This document shows, one piece after another, positions 5,310-34,947 of a stretch of 34,947 nt of DNA (its first letter is position 1; each line of letters begins with the position of its first letter). The stretch is from a virus: UHGV virus genome UHGV-0108399, one strand, 5' to 3'. The notes under the pieces were generated by a model, which did not search any database, was not told the DNA's origin, and was given only the letters and a program-made list of their open reading frames with translations. Both the position numbers and the translations under genes were made by a program.

Positions 5310-6017
5310 TTATGCCGCCTGTTTTAGTTCGTTAACTCTGATGTTCATTACCTGAACGCATTTAGCCTGCGCCTCCTCGTTGCCAGCCATTAATTGCCAG
5401 TCACGCTGATAACGCTCGATGAGTTTTTTCTTGTCAGTTTCTGTTGACGCATAATCGCTGAAGTCTTTCAGGATTTGTTCGCAGTCAACCGATGGAGATT
5501 TCTGGTTGGTATTTTCTGGTGATGGTTTGTTATCTGATGCTGGGATTGCCCATCCCGGCAGCGATGGAGGGAGCCAGCAAAATCCTGTTCCATCCTTCAG
5601 TTTTGCCCTGTGCCACCCCTGCTTTTTATCGAGAGATGTTTGTGCGAAACCTTCCTCAAGGTTATACAGATACCGACCGATTCCCCACTGAACGGCAGCA
5701 CGCTTCATTGCACCTGAACGACCACCTTTGACGGCTTCTACCTGCGTGTTTTCAGCAGCATCCCATTTGGTTACCCATTCGGAATCAATCTTGATTGATA
5801 TGCCGCATTCAACTCCGCCGTTGTTGGGAATATCGCGGTATTCATTGCGCCATCCTGCTTTGCCGCAAACATCGTCCAGGCGTTTCATGATTGCCCTGTT
5901 CGTGACATAAGCCAGCACCATAGCCCACACCTTTCCATCGCGTGTTTTACCGCTTTGCTGTATTCGCCATTCGATATCTTCAGGGCTGAATGGCTCATCG
6001 AATTTGTTCAAATCCAT
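5310..6017 (-). CDS. Rad52/22-family single-strand annealing recombinase (SSAP)
   Basis: 235 aa; conserved core (VECGISIKIDSEWVTKWDAAEN ... AMKRAAVQWGIGRYLYNL) resembles the Rad52/22 phage recombinase family; sits between kil/cIII and ssb where lambda has bet and P22 has erf. Confidence 0.65.
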   Translation of the reverse strand: MDLNKFDEPFSPEDIEWRIQQSGKTRDGKVWAMVLAYVTNRAIMKRLDDVCGKAGWRNEYRDIPNNGGVECGISIKIDSEWVTKWDAAENTQVEAVKGGRSGAMKRAAVQWGIGRYLYNLEEGFAQTSLDKKQGWHRAKLKDGTGFCWLPPSLPGWAIPASDNKPSPENTNQKSPSVDCEQILKDFSDYASTETDKKKLIERYQRDWQLMAGNEEAQAKCVQVMNIRVNELKQAA

Positions 6018-6025
6018 AATTCACC

Positions 6026-6214
6026 TCAGAATGGTAATTCGGATGGGGAGGAAAGAAATTCGCGCTCATTCATGCGCTCTCTTTGTGCTTGCCATAAACA
6101 AAGTTGTTTCTTTGATTTATCTCCCGCTTTACGCCAGTAACGAGCCTCAGCAATGTGATACTCTCTTTTTAATCGACTTAACTCTGGGGTTTTCGCCAGT
6201 TCTACCGTAATCAT
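6026..6214 (-). CDS. Small hypothetical protein (62 aa; track ORF has an alternative start at 6226)
   Basis: GGAGG RBS before internal ATG; ATGA overlap with the kil-like stop; its TGA stop lies in the RBS of the recombinase gene. Position matches P22 arf, but no similarity is claimed. Confidence 0.4.
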   Translation of the reverse strand: MITVELAKTPELSRLKREYHIAEARYWRKAGDKSKKQLCLWQAQRERMNEREFLSSPSELPF

Positions 6215-6324
6215 TTTGACCTCCATTTTCTGTAGGCTTCGATGGCCTCACGAAACATCTTTTCATCGCCAATAAAAGTGGCGATAGTGAATTTAGTCTG
6301 GATAGCCATAAGTGTTTTATCCAT
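6211..6324 (-). CDS. kil: Kil-like host cell-division inhibitor (37 aa)
   Basis: MDKTLMAIQTKFTIATFIGDEKMFREAIEAYRKW matches my recollection of the lambda Kil N-terminus; ATG overlaps the cIII stop (ATGGATAA). Confidence 0.6.
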   Translation of the reverse strand: MDKTLMAIQTKFTIATFIGDEKMFREAIEAYRKWRSK

Positions 6325-6457
6325 TTTTGGGAACTCCTGGCTGATTAAGTACGTCGATGAGTCGTTTCCATCCGTCACGTAATTTACGGGTGATTCGTTC
6401 AAGTAAAGATTCGGAAGGGCAGCCAGCAACAGGCCACCCTGCAATGGCATATTGCAT
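6317..6457 (-). CDS. cIII: cIII (FtsH/HflB protease inhibitor), 46 aa
   Basis: Hand-translated, not in the track (<60 aa, different frame from track ORF 6211..6450): MQYAIAGWPVAGCPSESLLERITRKLRDGWKRLIDVLNQPGVPKNG, near-identical to the lambda cIII core; RBS TAAGGAG. Confidence 0.8.
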   Translation of the reverse strand: MQYAIAGWPVAGCPSESLLERITRKLRDGWKRLIDVLNQPGVPKNG

Positions 6458-6529
6458 GGTGTGCTCCTTATTTATACATAACGAAAAACGCCTCGAGTGA
6501 AGCGTTATTGGTATGCGGTAACGCCGCGC

Positions 6530-6898
6530 TCAGGCGGCTTTGATAGTCATATCATCTGAATCAAATATTCCTGATGTATCGATATCGGTAATTCTTATTC
6601 CTTCGCTACCATCCATTGGAGGCCATCCTTCCTGACCATTTCCATCATTCCAGTCGAACTCACACACAACACCATATGCATTTAAGTCGCTTGAAATTGC
6701 TATAAGCAGAGCATGTTGCGCCAGCATGATTAATACAGCATTTAATACAGAGCCGTGTTTATTGAGTCGGTATTCAGAGTCTGACCAGAAATTATTAATC
6801 TGGTGAAGTTTTTCCTCTGTCATTACGTCATGGTCGATTTCAATTTCTATTGATGCTTTCCAGTCGTAATCAATGATGTATTTTTTGATGTTTGACAT
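6530..6898 (-). CDS. Hypothetical protein (122 aa), acidic C-terminus
   Basis: Track ORF between cIII and sieB/N with GAGGA RBS; no confident family assignment. Confidence 0.5.
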   Translation of the reverse strand: MSNIKKYIIDYDWKASIEIEIDHDVMTEEKLHQINNFWSDSEYRLNKHGSVLNAVLIMLAQHALLIAISSDLNAYGVVCEFDWNDGNGQEGWPPMDGSEGIRITDIDTSGIFDSDDMTIKAA

Positions 6899-6915
6899 CT
6901 ATTCATATCCTCACA

Positions 6916-6944
6916 GATAAAAAATCGCCCTCACATTGGAGGGC
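6916..6944 (-). terminator. Intrinsic terminator in the pL operon (tL-like): GCCCTC-CAATGT-GAGGGC followed by GATTTTTTATC
   Basis: 6-bp GC stem followed by a T6 run on the minus strand, between the sieB/N region and ORF 6530..6898. Confidence 0.55.
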
Positions 6945-7158
6945 AAAGAAGATTTCCAATAATCAGAACAAGTCGGCTCCTGTTTAGTTACGAGCGACAT
7001 TGCTCAGTGTATTCACTCGTTGGAATGAATACACCGTGCAGTGTTTATTCGTATGCCTGTCTTTTAACCACATCAGGCTCGGTGGTTCTCGTGTACCCCT
7101 ACAGCGAGAAATCGGATAAACTCTATTCACCCCTACAGAGAGCAAAAGAGAAACGCCG

Positions 7159-7740
7159 ATGAACAACTCATGGTGGCAGGAACTAATGCATTTTTTCCTG
7201 CAAGGAATGACACTTAAACAGTTGATTCATATGCTAATCATCCTGATCATATTGATTATTGTTATGCCGGTAAGCGTAAAAGAATGGATAAACCTGCATA
7301 ATCCAGAAATCCTTCCTCATTACTGGATGTATTACATCCTGTTGTTTTGCGTTAGCTATGTGCTTAACGGCGTTGTTAATTCCGCTTATCACGCTGTGAC
7401 TGAAAGAATTGAGGTATTCGCTGCTCAGAAGCGCAAATCTAAAGAAGAGAAATACGTGCAAGATTTGTTTGATTCGTTAACTCTTGGAGAAAGAGCGTAT
7501 TTGGCACTCGCTGTAGTCGCTAATAACCAGCTACAAACGGAAAAGGGAAGCCCTGAAGCAATCTCATTGCTCGAAAAAGGGCTTCTTATTCGGATACCTT
7601 CTGCTACTGGATATCCTGAAATCGACCGTTTTGTTATCCCAGAACGCTATAGAAATGAGTGCTACATTAGGTTTGCTGGGAAGAAAGACAGTCTTATGGA
7701 TGAACTTATCGCTCAGGATAAGCACGGCAAAAACAAGTAA
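7159..7740 (+). CDS. sieB: Superinfection exclusion protein B (SieB)
   Basis: 193 aa; N-terminal MNNSWWQELMHFFLQGMTLKQLIHMLIILIIL... with transmembrane segments, matching lambda SieB as I recall it. Confidence 0.8.
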   Translation: MNNSWWQELMHFFLQGMTLKQLIHMLIILIILIIVMPVSVKEWINLHNPEILPHYWMYYILLFCVSYVLNGVVNSAYHAVTERIEVFAAQKRKSKEEKYVQDLFDSLTLGERAYLALAVVANNQLQTEKGSPEAISLLEKGLLIRIPSATGYPEIDRFVIPERYRNECYIRFAGKKDSLMDELIAQDKHGKNK

Positions 7741-7756
7741 TTAGCAAATTAATTTA

Positions 7757-8140
7757 TCATCTCGCCGTCAGTTGTTTTGATTTCCGGTAGCCTGCCGCGT
7801 AAATGGCTACGTTTGGAAGACATACACCAGTTTCTGGTTGCTTATGTCCAAACTCATTCGCGTACACAATGGCCGCTCGCTCCAGATTGCGTCTGTATTC
7901 TTTCTGTTGCCAGATCACGTCCTGTGCCATGAACTTAATTGGCTTAGCGTCTTCTATGCGCTCAGGCGTTTCGTGAGTACCTTTAGCCTGAATCTGCGCT
8001 CTGCTTAGAGTAGGGCGGTGTAATACTTCTGAACTTATTGCTTCTTCGCGGGCCAGTACGCCGTTAGCTAATGCCTTTGCCTTTAAACGCTCACGACGAC
8101 GAGAACGTGAATTGCCTTTGAACTGAGTTCTGCGTGTCAT
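7757..8140 (-). CDS. N: Antitermination protein N (P22 gp24 / phage 21 N type)
   Basis: Arginine-rich motif near N-terminus (GNSRSRRRERLKAKALANG), C-terminus AIYAAGYRKSKQLTAR; AGGAGG RBS; first gene downstream of pL and nutL. Confidence 0.75.
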   Translation of the reverse strand: MTRRTQFKGNSRSRRRERLKAKALANGVLAREEAISSEVLHRPTLSRAQIQAKGTHETPERIEDAKPIKFMAQDVIWQQKEYRRNLERAAIVYANEFGHKQPETGVCLPNVAIYAAGYRKSKQLTAR

Positions 8141-8305
8141 ATAGACCTCCTGATGAACTTTGGTGGTGTGGTAGGTGGGAGACCCATTTCGACCTGTTTC
8201 GGCCTACTTCAATTCGGCAATAGTCCCGCAGGCCTCGCCGCTTTACGTGCGACATATTCCCGTCCATGAACCCTTCACTACACCCCAAAGTTCACTTTGG
8301 TTATT

Positions 8306-8320
8306 GCGCTTTGTCAGCGC
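8306..8320 (-). promoter_or_regulatory. nutL boxB hairpin (GCGCTGACAAAGCGC, P22-type GACAA loop)
   Basis: Transcribed-strand sequence is a 5-bp stem with GACAA pentaloop, identical in core to the boxB found downstream of cro; no canonical boxA seen next to it. Confidence 0.6.
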
Positions 8321-8388
8321 CGTAGATTCATATTCGAATCGTTGTATATTCACCGCCATGGTGAGTAGTGCGTCCTGCTGATGGCTAA

Positions 8389-8417
8389 ATAGTACGATGT
8401 GTACTTTATTGAGTCAA
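8389..8417 (-). promoter_or_regulatory. pL promoter (-35 TTGACT, 17-nt spacer, -10 TACTAT) overlapping OL operator palindromes
   Basis: Read on the minus strand; the spacer contains the perfect palindrome AGTAC-N5-GTACT (8391..8405); an imperfect second site lies at about 8416..8430. Confidence 0.55.
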
Positions 8418-8480
8418 TACAAAATGTTCTAAATATGGTTGGTTTTTTATAACACTTTGTATTTTATTGATTTATATTTT

Positions 8481-8512
8481 GGAAAAAGAAAACCCGACGC
8501 TAAGGTCGGGTT
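8481..8512 (-). terminator. Intrinsic terminator downstream of cI (AACCCGAC-loop-GTCGGGTT followed by TTTTCTTTTT)
   Basis: 8-bp stem followed by a T-rich run on the minus strand, about 30 nt after the cI stop. Confidence 0.5.
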
Positions 8513-8542
8513 ATTGTTGTGTGTTTTAGAGTGGTGATGCTG

Positions 8543-9202
8543 TTAACTAAATGTCTCTTCAGGCCACTGGCTGGCGATAACTTTCCCTACTACGGAACAG
8601 CTATCATTGCATGGGATCATTGGATATTGCGGGTTTAGTGGTTGTAGGAACACCTGACCGCTATCCCTGATCAGTTTCTTGAAGGTAAACTCCTCACCAC
8701 CAAGTCTGGCTATGCAGAAATCACCTGGCTCAACAGCCTGCTCAGGGTCAACGAGAATTAACATCCCGTCAGGAAAACTTGGCTTGGATCCTGTTGGTGC
8801 GGTCATGGAATTACCTTCAACTTCAAGCCAAAACGCACAATCACTGGCTTTTTTGGTTGTGCTGACCCATCTCTCCGCATCACCTTTGGTAAAGGTTCTA
8901 AGCTCAGGCGAGAACATCCCGGCCTGAACATGAGAAAAAACAGGGTACTCATATTGTTTTTTTACGGGGGCAGATGAGTATTCGCCAACAGGTGAAAATG
9001 TACCGTCGTGGTTGAATGAGACGTTATCAATACCAAGGTATTTAAACACCACACCAATCTCGTCAAGAGATGGATGACGAGATCCGCGCAACCAGTGACC
9101 AATTCCACCCTGCGTCATACCAAGCTCTTCAGCTAACTTCTCTTGAGTTATGCCGAGCTCTTTCATTCTGGATCTAGCCAGTTCATACCATTTCATTTTC
9201 AT
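8543..9202 (-). CDS. cI: CI-type prophage repressor (HTH N-domain + LexA/S24-like C-domain); start at 9202 or 9196
   Basis: C-terminal domain near-identical to the lambda cI C-domain ([39 protein letters not shown] ... [11 protein letters not shown]); N-terminal HTH ([27 protein letters not shown]) is not lambda-like. The track ORF start at 9277 lies in the operator region; AAGGA RBS supports 9202/9196. Confidence 0.85.
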
Positions 9203-9211
9203 ATCCTTATT

Positions 9212-9287
9212 ATTACGCTCTGTACTAAAACCATCCATGCACAAGATGTATTTTTTGTTTGCATTCCAAGAGTACATATCGTATTAT
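9212..9287 (+). promoter_or_regulatory. OR operator region with pR promoter (-35 TTGCAT 9259..9264, -10 TATTAT 9282..9287)
   Basis: Candidate operator palindromes at 9212..9226 (ATTAC-N5-GTACT), 9238..9252 (weak) and 9271..9285 (AGTAC-N5-GTATT); the last sits in the pR spacer. Divergent pRM not precisely mapped. Confidence 0.5.
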
Positions 9288-9313
9288 TGTTTCATGGTTA
9301 CTATGGAGGGCAT

Positions 9314-9529
9314 ATGAGCAACCTACGAAAATATCGAGAGTCACTGAATATCTCTCAAACAACCCTTGCTAAGGCGGTTGGATGCACACAGGGGGCTATC
9401 GGACATTGGGAATCTGGTCGTCGCTTCCCAGACCTTAAAACATGCCGTGCTCTTGTTGCGTGCCTAAACAAGTTAGGCGCAAAAGTCAGTCTTGATGACG
9501 TGTTCCCGCCGGAACACCAAGCCGCTTAA
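9314..9529 (+). CDS. cro: Cro-like repressor (HTH_XRE type, 71 aa)
   Basis: MSNLRKYRESLNISQTTLAKAVGCTQGAIGHWESGRRFP...; GGAGGG RBS; recognition region resembles the cI N-domain (TQG-IGHW). The track ORF 9143..9529 is an upstream extension across OR. Confidence 0.8.
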   Translation: MSNLRKYRESLNISQTTLAKAVGCTQGAIGHWESGRRFPDLKTCRALVACLNKLGAKVSLDDVFPPEHQAA

Positions 9530-9999: not shown

Positions 10000-10146
10000 A
10001 TGACAAAACAACTCAGTCCTTACCAGGACAAAATTCACAAACACATACTACGTGATCGCTTCCTGTCCAGCTTCAAGCAGCCTGGTCGATTCCGGTCTGA
10101 GTTGGAAAAAGTGAAGCTGATGCAGAAGGAGAAAGGTCATGAGTAA
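10000..10146 (+). CDS. Small hypothetical protein (48 aa) between cII and O
   Basis: Hand-translated ORF ([48 protein letters not shown]) with AGGAG RBS 6 nt upstream; 3' end overlaps the start of the O-like gene. Confidence 0.3.
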
Positions 10147-10999
10147 TATTGCAACCGTAACACATTTAAGGCCTTCACAACGGCCTGTGGAGCGTCGTGT
10201 GGCAGAAGTTGAAGATGGTTATACCCGTCTTGCAAATGCCCTGTATGAAGAGCTTATCGGCGCAGATTTAACGAAAAATCAGAGCAAGGTTGCCCACGCC
10301 ATATGCCGTAAAACATACGGCTACGGTAAAAAGATGGATCGCATCTCTGATAGTCAGTTAGCTCAAATTACCAGGCTGCCAAGACAGAAGGTAAACAAGG
10401 CCAAGAATGAGCTTATCGCGATGAAGGTAATCCTTCGCGAAGGCCAGCAAATCGGGCCTAACAAGAACATCGAGGAATGGCAAATCGAAGGGTGTCACTA
10501 CTCTGGTGATAATGTCACTGCATTGGTGACAAAAAGTGTCACCAAAACGGTGACAGCGCTGTCACCAAAACAGGGACACACAAAAGAAACTATTACAAAA
10601 GAAAAAAGAAATAATAAAAACACTATGTCCGAAAGTGTTCGGACGGAGTGTGAAAAATCATCTGACCGTCACGAAGAAACCGACAAGGCATTCGAGGAAA
10701 TATTCTGGTGTGCAGGCATGCGGAAAGCCGGGAAGAAAAACGCAGCTTCAGCATTCAGAACACAGTTCAGGGAATGGCGTAAAACTACCAGGGGTACGGC
10801 AAGCGAGTTTGCCACGATGCTGGCAGAAGACATCGCATGCAGGAATGGTAAGCAGTTCGGATTCGACAGGTTGTTACCATCGAGCTACCTGAACGGTCAG
10901 CGCTGGAACGACGAAAAGCCAGAAACCATTCAACCACAATCCAAACCATCATCCGCAATCACCGTATCGAAAACTGGCTACGTGTTTTTCGACAGGTGA
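10139..10999 (+). CDS. O: Replication initiator, lambda O-like N-terminal domain
   Basis: N-terminal ~110 aa ([56 protein letters not shown] ... GPNKNIEEW) resembles the lambda O N-domain; C-terminal half is unrelated to lambda O. Confidence 0.8.
10504..10620 (+). repeat. Putative replication origin: GGTGAC / GTCACC iteron palindromes followed by an A-rich segment, inside the O-like gene
   Basis: GGTGATAATGTCAC, GGTGACAAAAAGTGTCACC and GGTGACAGCGCTGTCACC in tandem, then AAAAGAAACTATTACAAAAGAAAAAAGAAATAATAAAAA; architecture matches ori-lambda. Confidence 0.55.
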
Positions 11000-26365: not shown

Positions 26366-26614
26366 ATGACACACATGATCTTTCGTCATGGCGACATGAA
26401 GAAGTGGAAAGGCGTTGGCTACGACTTTGAAATCGTGAAAGCCGAAGAGCTTCAGGAATATCTGGATGCTGGTTGGTTTTCACATCCTGATGACCTTTTG
26501 AAGGATGTTGCAGAGCCAGAGCCAGAGCCAGAGCCAGAGCCAGAAGAAAAACAGCGTAAAAAGCCTGGTCGAAAACCTAAGGCGGCAGCAGATGAACCTG
26601 ACAACGAAGGGTGA
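26366..26614 (+). CDS. Small protein with (EP)5 linker and basic C-terminal tail (82 aa)
   Basis: GGAGA RBS before the ATG at 26366; folded-looking N-terminal region, [10 protein letters not shown] encoded by a hexanucleotide repeat, then [13 protein letters not shown]. Confidence 0.45.
26513..26542 (+). repeat. Perfect tandem hexanucleotide repeat (GAGCCA)x5
   Basis: Directly visible at 26513..26542; gives repeat-amino-acid artefacts in several reading frames of the ORF track (SQSQ, GSGS, WLWL). Confidence 0.9.
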
Positions 26615-29668: not shown

Positions 29669-30364
29669 ATGTTATATGCATTTACGCTGGGCAGAAAACT
29701 GCGCGGCGAGGAACCTTATTGCCCTGAAAAAGGCGGGAAAGGTGGCAGTTCTGATAAAAGCGCAAAGTATGCCGCAGAAGCTCAGAAGTATGCCGCAGAC
29801 CTGCAGAATAAGCAGTGGCAGACGATCATGAAAAACCTTGCTCCGTTCACGCCACTCGCTCAGCAGTACGTATCACAATTGCAGAATCTTTCCTCTCTTC
29901 AGGGGCAAGGTCAGGCACTTAACCAGTATTACAACTCTCAGCAGTACAAAGATCTTGCTGGTCAGGCTCGCTATCAGAGTCTGGCTGCAGCGGAAGCAAC
30001 AGGTGGATTGGGTTCCACTGCAACCGGTAATCAGTTAGCAACAATCGCACCAACGCTTGGTCAGCAGTGGCTGTCTGGTCAGATGAACAACTACCAGAAT
30101 CTGGCAAATATTGGTCTTGGCGCACTGCAAGGTCAGGCAAACGCCGGGCAGACATATGCCAACAACATGAGTCAGATTTCGCAGCAAAGTGCGGCTCTTG
30201 CCGCTGCTAATGCCAATAAACCATCAGGTCTTCAGACAGCAATTAGCGGCGGAGCTTCAGGGGCTATGACTGGCGCTGCTCTTGGCTCTATTGTTCCCGG
30301 ACTTGGCACTGGATTAGGTGCGGCAATTGGCGGCGGACTTGGCCTGCTTGGATCGTTGTTTTAA
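29669..30364 (+). CDS. Ejection protein (P22 gp7-like)
   Basis: 231 aa; Q/N/G-rich low-complexity region and glycine-rich hydrophobic C-terminus, typical of P22 gp7. Confidence 0.75.
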   Translation: MLYAFTLGRKLRGEEPYCPEKGGKGGSSDKSAKYAAEAQKYAADLQNKQWQTIMKNLAPFTPLAQQYVSQLQNLSSLQGQGQALNQYYNSQQYKDLAGQARYQSLAAAEATGGLGSTATGNQLATIAPTLGQQWLSGQMNNYQNLANIGLGALQGQANAGQTYANNMSQISQQSAALAAANANKPSGLQTAISGGASGAMTGAALGSIVPGLGTGLGAAIGGGLGLLGSLF

Positions 30365-31705: not shown

Positions 31706-34099
31706 ATGGCTAATTACCGTGATTTGTTAGAGCAGGCTGGCGCACGTTACGGTGTGCCAGAAGGGTTGATGACTGCACTGGGTGCCAAGGAGTCTTCTTA
31801 CGACCCTGCCGCAGTAAGCTCCGCCGGGGCTGTAGGATTGACTCAGGTCATGCCTGGGACATGGCGTGATATGGGTTATACCGATGAGCAAATGCAAAAC
31901 CCCGAATATCAGGCTGACGCTGGCGCGCGCTATCTGGCAAAGATGTACCAGCAGTTTGGTAACTGGCGTGACGCTCTTCAGGCTTATCACGACGGTCCCG
32001 GCAACGTTATGAAGGCAAAGCGTGGTGAATATACGCCAGGACCTGAAGGCCGCGGTTACGTTGATGATCGCTTTGCTCAATGGGCGGGTGACCCGGTGAC
32101 AGACTCAACAGTCGAACAGCGCGCCACCTCTGCAAAGGTACATCCTCAGCAAGACCCTAACAACCCGTTTGCACAACTGGAAGTACAGTCATCCGAACAA
32201 GTATCGGCATCAGGTGTGCAGTCAGACCCAAATAATCCATTTGCTCAGATTGAGCAGCAGGCAGCCAGTCAGCAGCCACCTCAACCCGTAAGTTCTGTCG
32301 CACCGAAACCTGTTCAGCAACAAGGCGGAATAATGTCTGACCTTGGTAATGGACTTGCTGAAACCGGGCGCGGCTTACTACAGGCAGGAATCAACGTGGC
32401 GAACATACCTGCTGAACTCACTGATGCTGTAACAAGCGCGGCGGCTTGGGCTGGCGGTAAACTCGGCATTGGCGATGGTACATATCAACCAGCACCACGA
32501 TTAACAACGCAGGGATTAGAGCAGGACTTTGGCCTTCAGCAAGGAGCGCTGACTCCACAAACGACAGAGGGAAGGGTATTTGCTGAAGCATTGCCTTACC
32601 TCACTCCTGCCGGCGTTGAGAGAGCGGCAACACAGGCACCAACACTTGCTGGTCGAATTGCTCAGGGTGCAACTCGCCTTCTCGCTGAAAACGCAGTTGG
32701 ATCACTTGCTGCAAACAGTGTGAAAGATGATGCGGAAGCACTAGCCACCGACTTAGGCGTTGGCGTTCTGGCTGGCGGAGCTATTAACGCTGCCGGACGT
32801 GGATTAGGTGCTGCTTATCGTGGAGTTCGTGGTGCGATAGCGCCAGAAGCGCAACAGGCTATCAGGTTTGCAGAGCGTGAAGGAGTGCCTCTGCACACCA
32901 CAGACCTGTTACAACCTACTTCCCGCGTCGGAAAAATGGCGCAGACTACAGCAGAAAATATCCCTCTGGCTGGCACAAGCGGAATGAGAGCAACGCAACA
33001 GGAAGCGAGAAGCCAGTTGGTGCAGAGATTTGCTGATAAATTCGGTGAGTATGATCCAGCTGTTGTTATTGAAAGCCTTAAAGCGAAAACATCAGGAATT
33101 CGTCGTGCTGCAGGTAATCGACTTGAACAGGTTCAGAATGCAATGGCGGGAGTCAACATTCAGCCTGTGCGAGCAATTCAGCAGATTGATACTGAGATAT
33201 CTAACCTGCAGAAGCTTGGTAAGGTCGCTGATAACGAGACGATTTCAAAACTTCAATCCTATCGTGATGAGCTTATTCGCAATGCTGGTCATGATGGTCC
33301 GGTAAATCTGGATTTGAAGCAATTAAGCGATCTGCGCAGCCAGTTCAGAATGGACGTGAAGGGTGAGCGACCAGTGTTACCAAATCGTTCCGATGCCGCC
33401 ATACAGCGCGTTTACAAGGCGATGACCGACGATATCAATGGTGCCATTGGTCATAATCTTGGCAACGATACTCTCCGTAAATATCAGCAGGCCAATGCCG
33501 TCTACGCTGACGAAGCGGCGAAACTAAAGAATACCAGGCTGAAGAATGTTCTCATGAAAGGCGACCTGACACCGGAAATTGTCAACAACATGCTATTCAG
33601 CAAGAACAAATCGGAAATTAAGACGCTGTATAACTCAGTTGGTCGTGTTGGCAGGGCGCAAATGCGCAATGGCATCATTGGAAAGGCGATGGAGAAATCT
33701 GGCGGATCCCCTGACCAGTTCCTTCGGCAGCTTAACATCCTGCAAAACCAGACTGGCATCACATTTAAGGGGCAGGATGCTGCTTATCTGAAAGGATTGA
33801 AAAATTACCTTCAGTCCACTCAGCAGGCAGCAAAAGCGGCAGTAACAACACCCACAGGGCAGCAAACCATCCCGTTCATTATCGGGTATGGGACGGCAAT
33901 GAACCCGGCGACAACTGGCGCAGCAGTAAGCTACGGACTTCTTACTCGCGCCTATGAGAGCGAACCATTCAGAAATGCAATGCTCAGAATGGCAAACACC
34001 CCACGCGGATCAACAGCCTTTGAGAAAGCAATGCAGCAGGCACAAAAGGCAATTAACGCTCTGACGCAGGGGGCTAAGTCTGATTCGTTGTCAGAATAG
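31706..34099 (+). CDS. Ejection protein (gp16 position) with N-terminal soluble lytic transglycosylase domain
   Basis: 797 aa; N-terminal SLT motif (GAKESSYDPAAVSSAGAVGLTQVMPGTWRDMGY); long A/G/Q-rich extended region; internal DPNNPFAQ duplication. Confidence 0.75.
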   Translation: MANYRDLLEQAGARYGVPEGLMTALGAKESSYDPAAVSSAGAVGLTQVMPGTWRDMGYTDEQMQNPEYQADAGARYLAKMYQQFGNWRDALQAYHDGPGNVMKAKRGEYTPGPEGRGYVDDRFAQWAGDPVTDSTVEQRATSAKVHPQQDPNNPFAQLEVQSSEQVSASGVQSDPNNPFAQIEQQAASQQPPQPVSSVAPKPVQQQGGIMSDLGNGLAETGRGLLQAGINVANIPAELTDAVTSAAAWAGGKLGIGDGTYQPAPRLTTQGLEQDFGLQQGALTPQTTEGRVFAEALPYLTPAGVERAATQAPTLAGRIAQGATRLLAENAVGSLAANSVKDDAEALATDLGVGVLAGGAINAAGRGLGAAYRGVRGAIAPEAQQAIRFAEREGVPLHTTDLLQPTSRVGKMAQTTAENIPLAGTSGMRATQQEARSQLVQRFADKFGEYDPAVVIESLKAKTSGIRRAAGNRLEQVQNAMAGVNIQPVRAIQQIDTEISNLQKLGKVADNETISKLQSYRDELIRNAGHDGPVNLDLKQLSDLRSQFRMDVKGERPVLPNRSDAAIQRVYKAMTDDINGAIGHNLGNDTLRKYQQANAVYADEAAKLKNTRLKNVLMKGDLTPEIVNNMLFSKNKSEIKTLYNSVGRVGRAQMRNGIIGKAMEKSGGSPDQFLRQLNILQNQTGITFKGQDAAYLKGLKNYLQSTQQAAKAAVTTPTGQQTIPFIIGYGTAMNPATTGAAVSYGLLTRAYESEPFRNAMLRMANTPRGSTAFEKAMQQAQKAINALTQGAKSDSLSE

Positions 34100-34262
34100 C
34101 TTTGCAAACACCAGAAATGTGCAAAAACCAAATATATAGAACGCAATATTCAACTGATCTTTTTGCATAGACTCATCTCATAGTTAACAAATCATAACTT
34201 ACATTAATGCAATGCCGGGCAAGTTGCATCTTGTTCCGCATTGCTACGTCTGGAGAAAATTA

Positions 34263-34947
34263 AATGACAGACATTACAGCCAATGTTGTAGTGAGTATGC
34301 CTTCGCAACTCTTCACTATGGCGCGTTCTTTTAAAGCAGTAGCCAACGGCAAAATTTATATCGGAAAAATTGACACTGACCCGGTAAGTCCAGAAAACCA
34401 GATTCAGGTTTATGTAGAGAACGAAGACGGCTCTCATGTTCCTGTTTCGCAGCCAATCATCATTAACGCTGCTGGATATCCGGTATATAACGGGCAGATT
34501 GCCAAATTCGTAACTGTTCAAGGCCATTCTATGGCTGTATATGATGCATATGGCACTCAGCAGTTCTATTTCCCTAATGTGCTGAAGTATGACCCGGATC
34601 AGCTACGGCAGCAGTTAGAAGACCCGGATGGTGCTAAAAAATATCCCGAATTGCAGATTGCACGATGGCGTGATGACAAAGATGTTCGCGGTTGGGGGGC
34701 TATCAGTGATGGAATAACTGACGCTACTGAGGCATTCTCTAACGCAGGCTATAGAATGTTTGTTCCTGATGGCGATTTTGCAGTAAATACTCTCGAAGTT
34801 GATGTATCTTCTGCTCGAGGTATTGGGAGGATTGTTGCAGATAATGGCTCTCTTATTTCCGTTTCTCGTCTACTTGAAACTGACAAACTTGCGCAGAGAA
34901 AAATGATGGAACCTTTTTTTGGTTTTCAGGGAGAAACAAACACAGAA
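34263..34947 (+). CDS. Tailspike protein, N-terminal part (P22 gp9-type head-binding domain + start of divergent receptor-binding domain); truncated by window end
   Basis: Hand-translated: [41 protein letters not shown] ... [15 protein letters not shown] ... NVLKYDPDQ closely matches the P22 tailspike head-binding domain; downstream sequence is not P22-like; no stop before the window end; GGAGA RBS. Confidence 0.85.

What the first reader, a model, noticed from the sequence alone, without database searches (positions are those of the whole stretch)
6999..7158. Perfect 9-bp inverted repeat and 13-nt direct repeats upstream of sieB
GTGTATTCA-N10-TGAATACAC (about 7007..7034) is a perfect inverted repeat without a T-run, so more likely a protein-binding site or RNA structure than a terminator. 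Downstream, CCCCTACAG(C/A)GAG occurs twice (about 7096..7109 and 7131..7143) just before the sieB start. Together they suggest specific regulation of the superinfection-exclusion gene, which in lambda is expressed in the lysogen.
Basis: seen in the sequence. Interest (0 to 1): 0.4.

Follow-up and report, generated by a model that had tools for sequence, protein, structure and literature searches.

The report
PreS-flanking hairpin plus sieB promoter repeats
The inverted repeat is not a sieB control site: it is a conserved RNA hairpin lying directly in front of the recently described phage small RNA PreS on the opposite strand, and the direct repeats are a conserved motif pair inside the already mapped sieB promoter.

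Summary
Both features exist as described. They are two unrelated elements, adjacent only because this lambdoid prophage lacks the 339-bp ral/orf28 segment of lambda.

**Inverted repeat (7007-7034).** It belongs to the minus strand, the early-left pL transcript. There it forms a 14-bp hairpin (7036-7023 with 7018-7005). Its last paired base, G7005, is nucleotide +1 of PreS/LPR1, the 88-nt Hfq-dependent lambda sRNA (window 7005->6918, 87/88 identical). All 221 PreS homologues examined carry a hairpin at this spot. Five unrelated stem sequences occur, so the structure is conserved while the sequence is not: 9 of 14 pairs change on both sides, and there are 30 G.U cells against 0 A.C. I infer a processing or stability hairpin that sets the PreS 5' end. 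The held PreS preprint does not describe it.

**Direct repeats.** ACCCCTACAG occupies -34..-25 and +1..+10 of the sieB promoter, mapped through the identical, annotated P22 sequence. Both copies persist in five to six diverged sieB lineages while the spacer and leader vary. Their function is unassigned.

Joint regulation of sieB by the two features is not supported. Interest is moderate.

The parts
7005..7036 (-). Stem 7036-7023 pairs with 7018-7005 (14 bp including 2 G.U); loop CAAC at 7022-7019. G7005, which closes the stem, is PreS nucleotide +1.
   Evidence: Fold. Covariation. A hairpin is present upstream of all 221 PreS homologues. Strand asymmetry.
6997..7044 (-). Extended lower stem of HP1, found in the long form shared by lambda and this window. 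7040-7038 pairs with 7003-7001, and 7044-7042 with 6999-6997, so the first 9 nt of PreS are paired to upstream RNA in the precursor.
   Evidence: This part is absent in the short-form variants.
6918..7005 (-). PreS (LPR1) small RNA, 88 nt, 87/88 identical to lambda 34011->33924. The single difference lies in the terminator loop.
   Evidence: The ends come from primers P810, P1103 and P1104 of bioRxiv 10.1101/2024.10.31.621285. Identity.
6967..6984 (-). HP2 inside PreS: AACAGG (6984-6979) pairs with CUUGUU (6972-6967).
   Evidence: RNAalifold. Pair counts: 4 of 7 pairs change on both sides.
6950..6970 (-). PreS seed region, UGUUCUGAUUAUUGGAAAUCU (PreS positions 36-56), identical to lambda.
   Evidence: Mutant primers and the alaS pairing figure of the preprint. 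Identity.
6919..6946 (-). Intrinsic terminator at the position of lambda tL2a (stem-loop 6946-6925, U-run 6924-6919). It forms the 3' end of PreS.
   Evidence: Terminator scan. The preprint states that the LPR1 3' end is tL2a.
7045..7053 (.). Mosaic junction. TTATTC (7045-7050) is the right-hand end of the PreS module. GTA (7051-7053) replaces lambda 34057-34395, which holds ral and orf28.
   Evidence: BLAST against lambda, ev017 and VT1-Sakai. Junction types.
7086..7110 (.). Imperfect palindrome TTCTCG-TGTA-CCCC-TACA-g-CGAGAA, which encloses repeat copy 1 and overlaps the -35 region of the sieB promoter.
   Evidence: Sequence. Folds in six lineages.
7092..7122 (+). sieB promoter PsieB: -35 TGTACC at 7092-7097 and -10 TAAACT at 7117-7122, placed by identity with the annotated P22 promoter 29690-29720.
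7095..7108 (+). Direct repeat copy 1, ACCCCTACAGCGAG, at -34..-21 relative to the inferred start.
7129..7142 (+). Direct repeat copy 2, ACCCCTACAGAGAG. A7129 corresponds to the annotated P22 sieB RNA start (29727), so this copy is +1..+14 of sieB mRNA.
   Evidence: It is an island of conservation in six lineages.
7159..7740 (+). sieB, 193 aa (Pfam SieB; 83% identical to P22 SieB). The in-frame esc start (Met25) is at 7231.
6530..6898 (-). ea10 (DUF2528), the gene downstream of PreS/tL2a on the leftward transcript.

Best explanation
The finding combines two independent elements. They sit next to each other only because this prophage lacks the ral/orf28 segment.

**(1) The inverted repeat.**
- Shown: it is an RNA hairpin (HP1) in the leftward, N-antiterminated pL transcript.
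- Shown: it lies immediately 5' of the Hfq-dependent sRNA PreS/LPR1, and its closing C-G pair uses PreS nucleotide +1.
- Inferred: PreS has no promoter of its own. It is cut out of the pL transcript by an endonucleolytic cleavage at the 3' base of HP1. RNase III acting on the 13-14-bp helix is my first guess; RNase E positioned by the hairpin is the second.
- Inferred: the cut creates the monophosphorylated PreS 5' end and leaves the upstream message capped by a stable 3' hairpin. The tL2a terminator makes the PreS 3' end.

**(2) The direct repeats.**
- Shown by homology: they are two copies of ACCCCTACAG inside the sieB promoter, at -34..-25 (overlapping the weak -35) and +1..+10 (the first transcribed bases).
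- Inferred: they probably descend from a 34-bp tandem duplication. They are kept because each overlaps a functional part of the promoter or the 5' end of the mRNA.
- A dedicated regulator is possible but not shown.
For: **Hairpin HP1.**
- The minus-strand fold is -24.9 kcal/mol, z -7.5. The whole precursor 7050->6915 gives z -6.9.
- The preprint's primers define PreS +1 as GAGCAAUGUC..., and its full-deletion design leaves the hairpin intact. This maps PreS to window 7005-6918 at 87/88 identity.
- A profile built from PreS alone found 221 loci with usable upstream sequence. Every one has a 10-14-bp hairpin ending 0-3 nt from +1, with 20 distinct hairpin sequences.
- Five unrelated stems are seen: lambda type, P22 type, BTP1 type, ES18 type and a U.G variant. 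One within-type double change occurs: ATAGCAGA/TCTGCTAT becomes ATAGCTGA/TCAGCTAT.
- Pair counts: 93% of cells paired, 9 of 14 pairs changed on both sides, 0/500 shuffles reach the score, and slid controls give 29-46%. RNAalifold finds the same helix independently.
- There are 30 G.U cells and 0 A.C cells. That gives 93.3% pairing as minus-strand RNA against 78.8% as plus-strand RNA.
- The C-G pair involving +1 is invariant (16/16). The 3' arm from loop to +1 is 13-14 nt in every type.

**No own promoter for PreS.**
- Sequence upstream of HP1 belongs to many unrelated modules.
- The preprint reports LPR1 only in the lytic cycle, from 10 min after induction.

**Direct repeats.**
- The P22 record annotates the promoter and RNA start on sequence identical to the window.
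- Both copies are kept with 34-35-bp spacing in P22-, lambda-, Rac-, Hafnia- and Klebsiella-type loci, while the spacer and leader diverge.
- The adjacent 34-mers are 21/34 identical.
Against: **Hairpin.**
- No cleavage data were available. The PreS 5' end rests on the authors' construct design and an approximately 88-nt northern band, not on base-resolution mapping that I could read.
- The P22-, BTP1- and ES18-type stems have only 10-13 stacked layers. That is short for a classical RNase III site.
- Much of the data set was collected with an anchor lying in the first 18 nt of PreS. Divergent PreS genes without a hairpin could therefore have been missed.
- Two singleton SNPs in the lambda-type stem are compatible with the plus strand instead.
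- The published version of the PreS paper (PMC12767721) was not readable. It may already describe how PreS is made.

**Direct repeats.**
- Within P22- and lambda-type loci the whole 85-bp block is more than 97% conserved, so conservation there says little.
- Salmonella phage S9-5 and two IMG/VR loci keep sieB with copy 1 replaced.
- The promoter is weak by consensus, and the scan did not call it.
Confidence: 0.6

Rival explanations
1. The inverted repeat is a DNA operator, or an RNA structure of the sieB transcript. Together with the direct repeats it gives sieB specific regulation in the lysogen.
For: - In this window the hairpin is only about 58 bp upstream of the sieB -35.
- The ral-less arrangement is common: 31 of 80 P22-type and 5 of 43 lambda-type sieB loci have it.
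Against: - The hairpin lies upstream of the sieB RNA start, so it is not in sieB mRNA.
- In lambda, P22 and most loci, 0.34-0.85 kb of other genes separate it from the promoter.
- The stem sequence is identical in phages with different repressors and completely different in others, with compensatory changes.
- The G.U pattern points to the opposite strand.
- The hairpin always accompanies PreS, not sieB.
Confidence: 0.04
2. HP1 is only a 3' stabiliser hairpin for whichever gene lies upstream on the pL transcript (ral, orf87 and others). The PreS 5' end is made independently, and the adjacency is incidental.
For: - In many contexts the hairpin starts 4-5 nt after the stop codon of the upstream ORF, within the conserved CGAATAA.
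- Several stems carry very stable tetraloops, for example UACG in the P22 type.
Against: - In lambda and in this window no ORF ends at GAATAA.
- The upstream gene varies, while the hairpin-to-PreS junction is fixed to the nucleotide, with an invariant C-G pair that uses PreS +1.
Confidence: 0.2
3. The two ACCCCTACAG copies are cis sites for a trans-acting partner rather than plain promoter parts. One option is a DNA-binding repressor or activator bracketing the -10. The other is an RNA mechanism. In it, leftward RNA (P22 sas antisense RNA or pL read-through) presents the complement of copy 1 in the GGGG loop of a hairpin (7110->7086). That loop then kisses the CCCC 5' end of sieB mRNA, as IS10 RNA-OUT does with RNA-IN.
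For: - Copy 2 is an island of conservation between variable flanks in six lineages.
- Copy 1 sits in a conserved imperfect palindrome or hairpin.
- The predicted duplex of the sieB 5' end with that region is -23.3 kcal/mol.
- An antisense RNA, sas (105 nt), is known to switch sieB/esc translation in P22.
Against: - No candidate protein is known.
- The sas ends could not be located.
- The copy-1 hairpin shows no clear strand preference.
- Some sieB loci lack copy 1.
- A 34-bp duplication explains the repeat without any partner.
Confidence: 0.2
4. The hairpin is a DNA-level feature: a cruciform or recombination boundary that marks a mosaic junction.
For: - Homology between phages often breaks just outside the hairpin.
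- Hairpin types and PreS body types recombine with each other; for example mEp213 and L045 carry a P22-type hairpin on a lambda-type PreS.
Against: - G.U pairs are tolerated and A.C pairs are not, which is a property of RNA, not of duplex DNA.
- The helix register relative to PreS +1 is fixed.
Confidence: 0.05

Closest known systems
PreS / LPR1 sRNA of phage lambda (Silverman et al., bioRxiv 10.1101/2024.10.31.621285; reviewed in PMC12197685)
   Same: - Same locus, with 87/88 identical sequence.
- The 3' end is at the tL2a terminator.
- The seed is identical.
- It lies in the early-left operon next to ea10.
   Different: - The annotated 88-nt sRNA starts one base-pair inside the base of the hairpin, so the hairpin itself is outside it.
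- The authors' deletion leaves the hairpin in place.
- The text and supplement I could read do not mention a hairpin, a promoter, or an RNase that makes the 5' end.
- In this window ral is missing, so PreS lies between ea10 and the sieB promoter.
P22 sieB promoter and RNA start (Ranade & Poteete 1993, as annotated in NC_002371 / BK000583)
   Same: The sequence is identical from 7054 to 7142, including the annotated promoter and the start nucleotide.
   Different: - The repeat motif is not annotated in those records.
- The window's leader is 1 nt shorter.
- SieB is 83% identical.
DicF sRNA of the Qin prophage (from my own knowledge: excised from the polycistronic dicB early-left-type transcript by RNase E and RNase III)
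   Same: It is an Hfq-binding sRNA embedded in a lambdoid early-left operon and released by processing rather than by its own promoter.
   Different: - There is no sequence similarity.
- Processing of PreS is inferred here, not demonstrated.
RNase III hairpins of the lambda pL transcript: the N-leader site and sib (from my own knowledge)
   Same: These are stable hairpins without U-runs in the same transcript that act as processing signals.
   Different: - Those helices span about two turns.
- Several HP1 types have only 10-13 bp.
- Cleavage at HP1 is untested.
KilS sRNA of the Rac prophage (b4833, annotated in NC_000913)
   Same: It occupies the same relative position: on the early-left strand, between sieB and the kil-side genes.
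   Different: It is not homologous to PreS or HP1. Only a 17/20 inverted match was found, with E 0.027 in a 600-bp search.

Membership tests
PreS/LPR1 sRNA locus | Sequence match to the 88-nt lambda LPR1, including the seed | tested here: met
   87/88 identical. The only change is in the terminator loop. The ends come from the authors' primers.
PreS/LPR1 sRNA locus | 3' end formed by a GC-rich stem plus poly-U (tL2a) | tested here: met
   Terminator-like site 6946-6925 plus U6 on the minus strand.
PreS/LPR1 sRNA locus | Location in the N-dependent early-left operon upstream of ea10 | tested here: met
   N peptide gene at 7757-8140(-), ea10 at 6530-6898(-), cIII thermoregulator at 6412-6470(-).
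PreS/LPR1 sRNA locus | Hfq binding, lytic-cycle expression, activation of dnaN | not testable with these tools
   Reported for lambda only.
Sigma-70 promoter PsieB | Identity with an experimentally mapped promoter and start site | tested here: met
   Window 7092-7129 is identical to P22 29690-29727, which is annotated as promoter and RNA start.
Sigma-70 promoter PsieB | Consensus-like -35 and -10 hexamers with 16-18-bp spacing | tested here: not met
   TGTACC, then 19 bp, then TAAACT. The scan did not call it. It is a weak or atypical promoter.
Intrinsic terminator (as a reading of the inverted repeat) | Stem-loop followed directly by a U-run | tested here: not met
   The minus strand continues GAGCAAUGUCG. 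The plus strand continues CGUGCAGUGU before UUAUUC.
Repressor operator (as a reading of the inverted repeat) | Conserved palindromic DNA sequence that co-varies with a cognate DNA-binding protein | tested here: not met
   - The same stem occurs in lambda and in this phage, whose repressor is different.
- Other phages have unrelated stems beside variable neighbouring genes.
- G.U tolerance is confined to one strand.
Conserved structured RNA element | Compensatory base-pair changes at fixed positions | tested here: met
   - 9 of 14 pairs change on both sides, and 93% of cells are paired.
- Slid controls give 29-46%, and 0/500 shuffles reach the score.
- An independent RNAalifold prediction agrees.
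RNase III processing site | Helix of at least about 11 bp between loop and scissile bond, cleaved in vivo in an rnc-dependent way | tested here: inconclusive
   The helix length from loop to PreS +1 is 13-14 layers in all types. Cleavage itself cannot be tested here.

The most novel reading that the evidence does not exclude
HP1 is an undescribed, obligatory biogenesis element of the PreS sRNA family. It would be a measuring hairpin whose 13-14-bp helix positions the endonucleolytic cut that creates the PreS 5' end. It exists in at least five interchangeable stem alleles, and it extends the PreS family from lambda-like coliphages to P22-, BTP1- and ES18-like Salmonella phages with altered seed flanks. 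A second, weaker novel reading is that the sieB promoter repeats form a loop-to-5'-end kissing pair for antisense control of sieB.
Probability: 0.4. Interest if true: 0.5.

Novelty: new member of a known kind. Interest (0 to 1): 0.4.

Why it matters
- PreS is a newly recognised phage sRNA that boosts host DnaN and phage replication. How it is released from a roughly 1.4-kb-distant promoter has not been explained in what I could read.
- A universally associated, covarying hairpin whose closing pair contains PreS +1 gives a concrete, testable model of how PreS is made.
- The hairpin also offers a sharper way to annotate PreS. The hairpin-plus-PreS unit is present and unannotated in 2,237 of 5,426 complete E. 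coli genomes, and spurious ORFs are called across it, for example BTP1_033.
- For sieB, the conserved ACCCYTACAG pair flags which bases to mutate when studying how the exclusion gene is expressed or silenced.
- For genome scanning, the case shows that two neighbouring motifs can belong to different strands and different mosaic modules.

Tried and rejected
- **Rfam.** A permissive scan of 5500-9500 found only the cIII thermoregulator and nothing over 6900-7160. PreS is not in Rfam 15.
- **Promoter scan.** It found no plus-strand promoter at 7054-7158. The promoter was placed by homology instead.
- **Literature on tL2/tL1 and sieB.** These searches were swamped by unrelated terms. The Ranade & Poteete papers are not held, nor is the published PreS paper.
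- **EHEC Hfq-CLIP paper.** It covers late-region sRNAs only.
- **Genome-contig scan.** Only about 22 loci were real.
- **Locating P22 sas RNA.** It is not annotated in NC_002371, BK000583 or AF217253. Manual inspection of the minus strand of 7160-7290 gave no convincing promoter, so sas is left unplaced.
- **A promoter for PreS inside or upstream of HP1.** None is conserved, by manual inspection of the sequences.
- **KilS as a PreS homologue.** Rejected.
- **Terminator and operator readings of the inverted repeat.** Rejected; see the membership tests.
- **Small ORFs 7007-7162(+) and 6984-7166(-).** They are interrupted by ral-region insertions in relatives, so they are not genes.
- **Strand preference for the copy-1 hairpin.** Sought but inconclusive.

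Full report
**Context.** The window carries the early-left region of a lambdoid prophage, read on the minus strand.
- The genes are an N-peptide gene (7757-8140, -), sieB (7159-7740, +), ea10/DUF2528 (6530-6898, -) and the cIII thermoregulator (6412-6470, -). An S24/HTH repressor lies at 8543-9277.
- SieB is 83% identical to P22 SieB.
- The 302 bp around the finding match 377 phage records.

**Observation.**
- GTGTATTCA-N10-TGAATACAC is at 7007-7034, exactly as reported.
- The repeats are at 7096-7108 and 7130-7142, with core ACCCCTACAG at 7095 and 7129.
- Within this window neither is statistically unusual on its own. Three perfect 9-bp inverted repeats occur, against 1.4 +/- 1.4 in shuffles. 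Repeats of the 13-mer kind occur at four loci, against about one position per shuffle.
- The case for both features therefore rests on structure and comparison.

**Two modules, not one.**
- BLAST against lambda shows window 6851-7050 = lambda 33857-34056, and window 7054-7138 = lambda 34396-34480. This phage therefore lacks lambda 34057-34395, which holds ral and orf28. VT1-Sakai has the same arrangement.
- The inverted repeat belongs to the ea10-side block. The direct repeats belong to the sieB-side block.
- In lambda the two are 0.34 kb apart, and in P22 about 0.85 kb.
- The ral-less junction occurs in 31 of 80 P22-type and 5 of 43 lambda-type sieB loci.

**The direct repeats.**
- The P22 records annotate a sieB promoter (29690-29720), the sieB RNA start (29727), sieB and esc.
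- The P22 sequence is identical to the window over 7054-7142. This places the elements as follows:

| Element | Window position |
|---|---|
| -35 TGTACC | 7092-7097 |
| -10 TAAACT | 7117-7122 |
| RNA start | A7129 |
| sieB AUG | 7159 |
| esc AUG | 7231 |

- Copy 1 is therefore -34..-25, and copy 2 is +1..+10.
- Within P22- and lambda-type loci the whole block is nearly invariant, so conservation there says little. More distant loci are informative.
- Rac of K-12, Hafnia phage Pocitis76 and Klebsiella phage Kp4866-6 keep both copies, with 34-35-bp spacing. Only the Rac second copy differs, as ACCCTTACAG.
- In those loci the spacer varies apart from a TAA in the -10, and the leader varies too. 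Copy 2 stands out as an island of invariant columns.
- Salmonella phage S9-5 and two IMG/VR loci retain only copy 2.
- The 34-mers starting at 7095 and 7129 are 21/34 identical, the window maximum for that period. This suggests an old tandem duplication of a promoter/leader unit.
- Copy 1 also sits in an imperfect palindrome at 7086-7110. It folds in all lineages, without a clear strand preference.
- I could not assign a partner. A regulator, or an antisense 'kissing' role connected with the known P22 sas RNA, remains possible.

**The inverted repeat.**
- As RNA it is very stable on both strands. On the minus strand it forms 14 continuous pairs plus 3+3 outer pairs (-24.9 kcal/mol, z -7.5).
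- P22 has, at the homologous place and between conserved flanks, a different perfect repeat: ATAGCAGA-N8-TCTGCTAT.
- A scan of IMG/VR with the conserved flank, added to the sieB loci, gave 190 instances. They carry five unrelated stems:
  - lambda type;
  - P22 type, including a double change to ATAGCTGA/TCAGCTAT;
  - AATGACCA/TGGTCATT, as in BTP1;
  - AATGCGGA/TCCGCATT, as in ES18;
  - a lambda-type variant whose T-to-C change gives U.G only on the minus strand.
- On a 16-sequence minus-strand alignment, 93% of cells pair and 9 of 14 pairs change on both sides. No shuffle reaches the score, and slid controls give 29-46%. RNAalifold predicts the same helix.
- The helix has 30 G.U cells and no A.C cells. 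That is 93.3% pairing as minus-strand RNA against 78.8% as plus-strand RNA.
- It is therefore an RNA hairpin of the leftward transcript. It is not a DNA operator and not part of sieB mRNA.

**What the hairpin belongs to.**
- Downstream of it on the minus strand lie a conserved 19-mer, a second covarying hairpin, an A/U-rich stretch and an intrinsic terminator. Variable genes flank this unit on both sides.
- A review (PMC12197685) and the primary preprint (10.1101/2024.10.31.621285) identify this unit as PreS/LPR1.
- They describe PreS as an Hfq-dependent sRNA between ea10 and ral. It is about 88 nt, with a processed form of about 68 nt, and it ends at tL2a.
- They also report that PreS is made only in the lytic cycle, activates host dnaN and represses alaS.
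- Their primers define +1 as GAGCAAUGUC... and the 3' end as ...GAGGGCGAUUUUUUA.
- In the window this is 7005->6918, 87/88 identical to lambda.
- G7005 is the 3' member of the closing C-G pair of the hairpin, and that pair is invariant in all types.
- The authors' full deletion leaves the hairpin intact.
- Neither the text nor the supplement mentions a hairpin, a promoter, or RNase E/III in connection with the 5' end.
- A PreS-only profile found 221 loci with upstream sequence. All have a 10-14-bp hairpin ending 0-3 nt from +1, and the 3' arm is always 13-14 nt.
- The unit is present in 2,237 of 5,426 complete E. coli genomes with no annotation. The P22-type version is in 94 phage records.

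**Mechanism.**
- Shown: the hairpin, its strand, its covariation, and its fixed junction with PreS +1.
- Inferred: PreS lacks its own promoter, for two reasons. Sequence upstream of the hairpin belongs to unrelated modules, and expression is confined to the lytic cycle.
- Inferred: its 5' end must therefore come from cleavage of the pL transcript at the base of the hairpin. The constant helix length fits a measuring nuclease such as RNase III. The short stems of some types keep RNase E, or a purely stabilising role, open.

**Verdict.**
- The repeat half of the finding falls inside a known promoter, with an unexplained conserved motif.
- The hairpin half is an apparently undescribed accessory of a known sRNA.
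- This gives moderate interest and clear experiments.

Noticed in passing
L333 2906-3003 (NC_000913 1418405-1418502, minus strand): The Rac prophage of K-12 carries the annotated sRNA KilS between sieB and kilR. That is the same relative position as PreS in lambdoid phages, but the sequence is unrelated. Early-left operons may repeatedly host sRNAs at this spot.
   Followed up: partly
window 6987-6996 (minus strand, PreS positions 10-19): CGCUCGUAAC, in the strongly conserved 5' segment of PreS, resembles the boxA element CGCUCUUA of nut sites. This segment is removed in the 68-nt processed form.
   Followed up: no
window 7176-7201: A 7-bp inverted repeat, GCAGGAA-N12-TTCCTGC, lies inside sieB codons 6-15, between the sieB AUG (7159) and the esc AUG (7231). 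It could bear on the known SieB/Esc translational switch.
   Followed up: no
window 10523-10575: A 9-bp inverted repeat and repeats of TGTCACCAAAAC spaced 23 bp apart lie inside the O-like replication gene (10139-10999). They are probably origin iterons.
   Followed up: no
window 6317-6457 (minus strand): The cIII ORF is 46 aa here, against 54 aa (165 bp) in the lambda and VT1-Sakai annotations. The upstream cIII thermoregulator RNA is intact (Rfam RF01804, 88.5 bits).
   Followed up: no
L328 145-291 (BTP1, LT714109) and several phage records: Hypothetical-protein CDSs are annotated straight across the hairpin plus PreS homologue (for example BTP1_033). These are probably spurious ORFs over a non-coding RNA.
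   Followed up: partly
L331 (phage mEp213) about 200-330: This phage is a mosaic: a P22-type hairpin is joined to a lambda-type PreS body, and the terminator stem is replaced by other sequence. Recombination evidently occurs inside the PreS unit.
   Followed up: no
window 26510-26545 and 29764-29800: There are short tandem repeats with periods of 18 bp (GCCAGA-rich) and 21 bp. They are the other loci picked up by the direct-repeat control.
   Followed up: no
window 7064-7085: The hairpin AACCAC-N10-GTGGTT, upstream of the sieB -35, is retained with changes in Rac, Hafnia and Klebsiella sieB loci. Its function is unknown.
   Followed up: no
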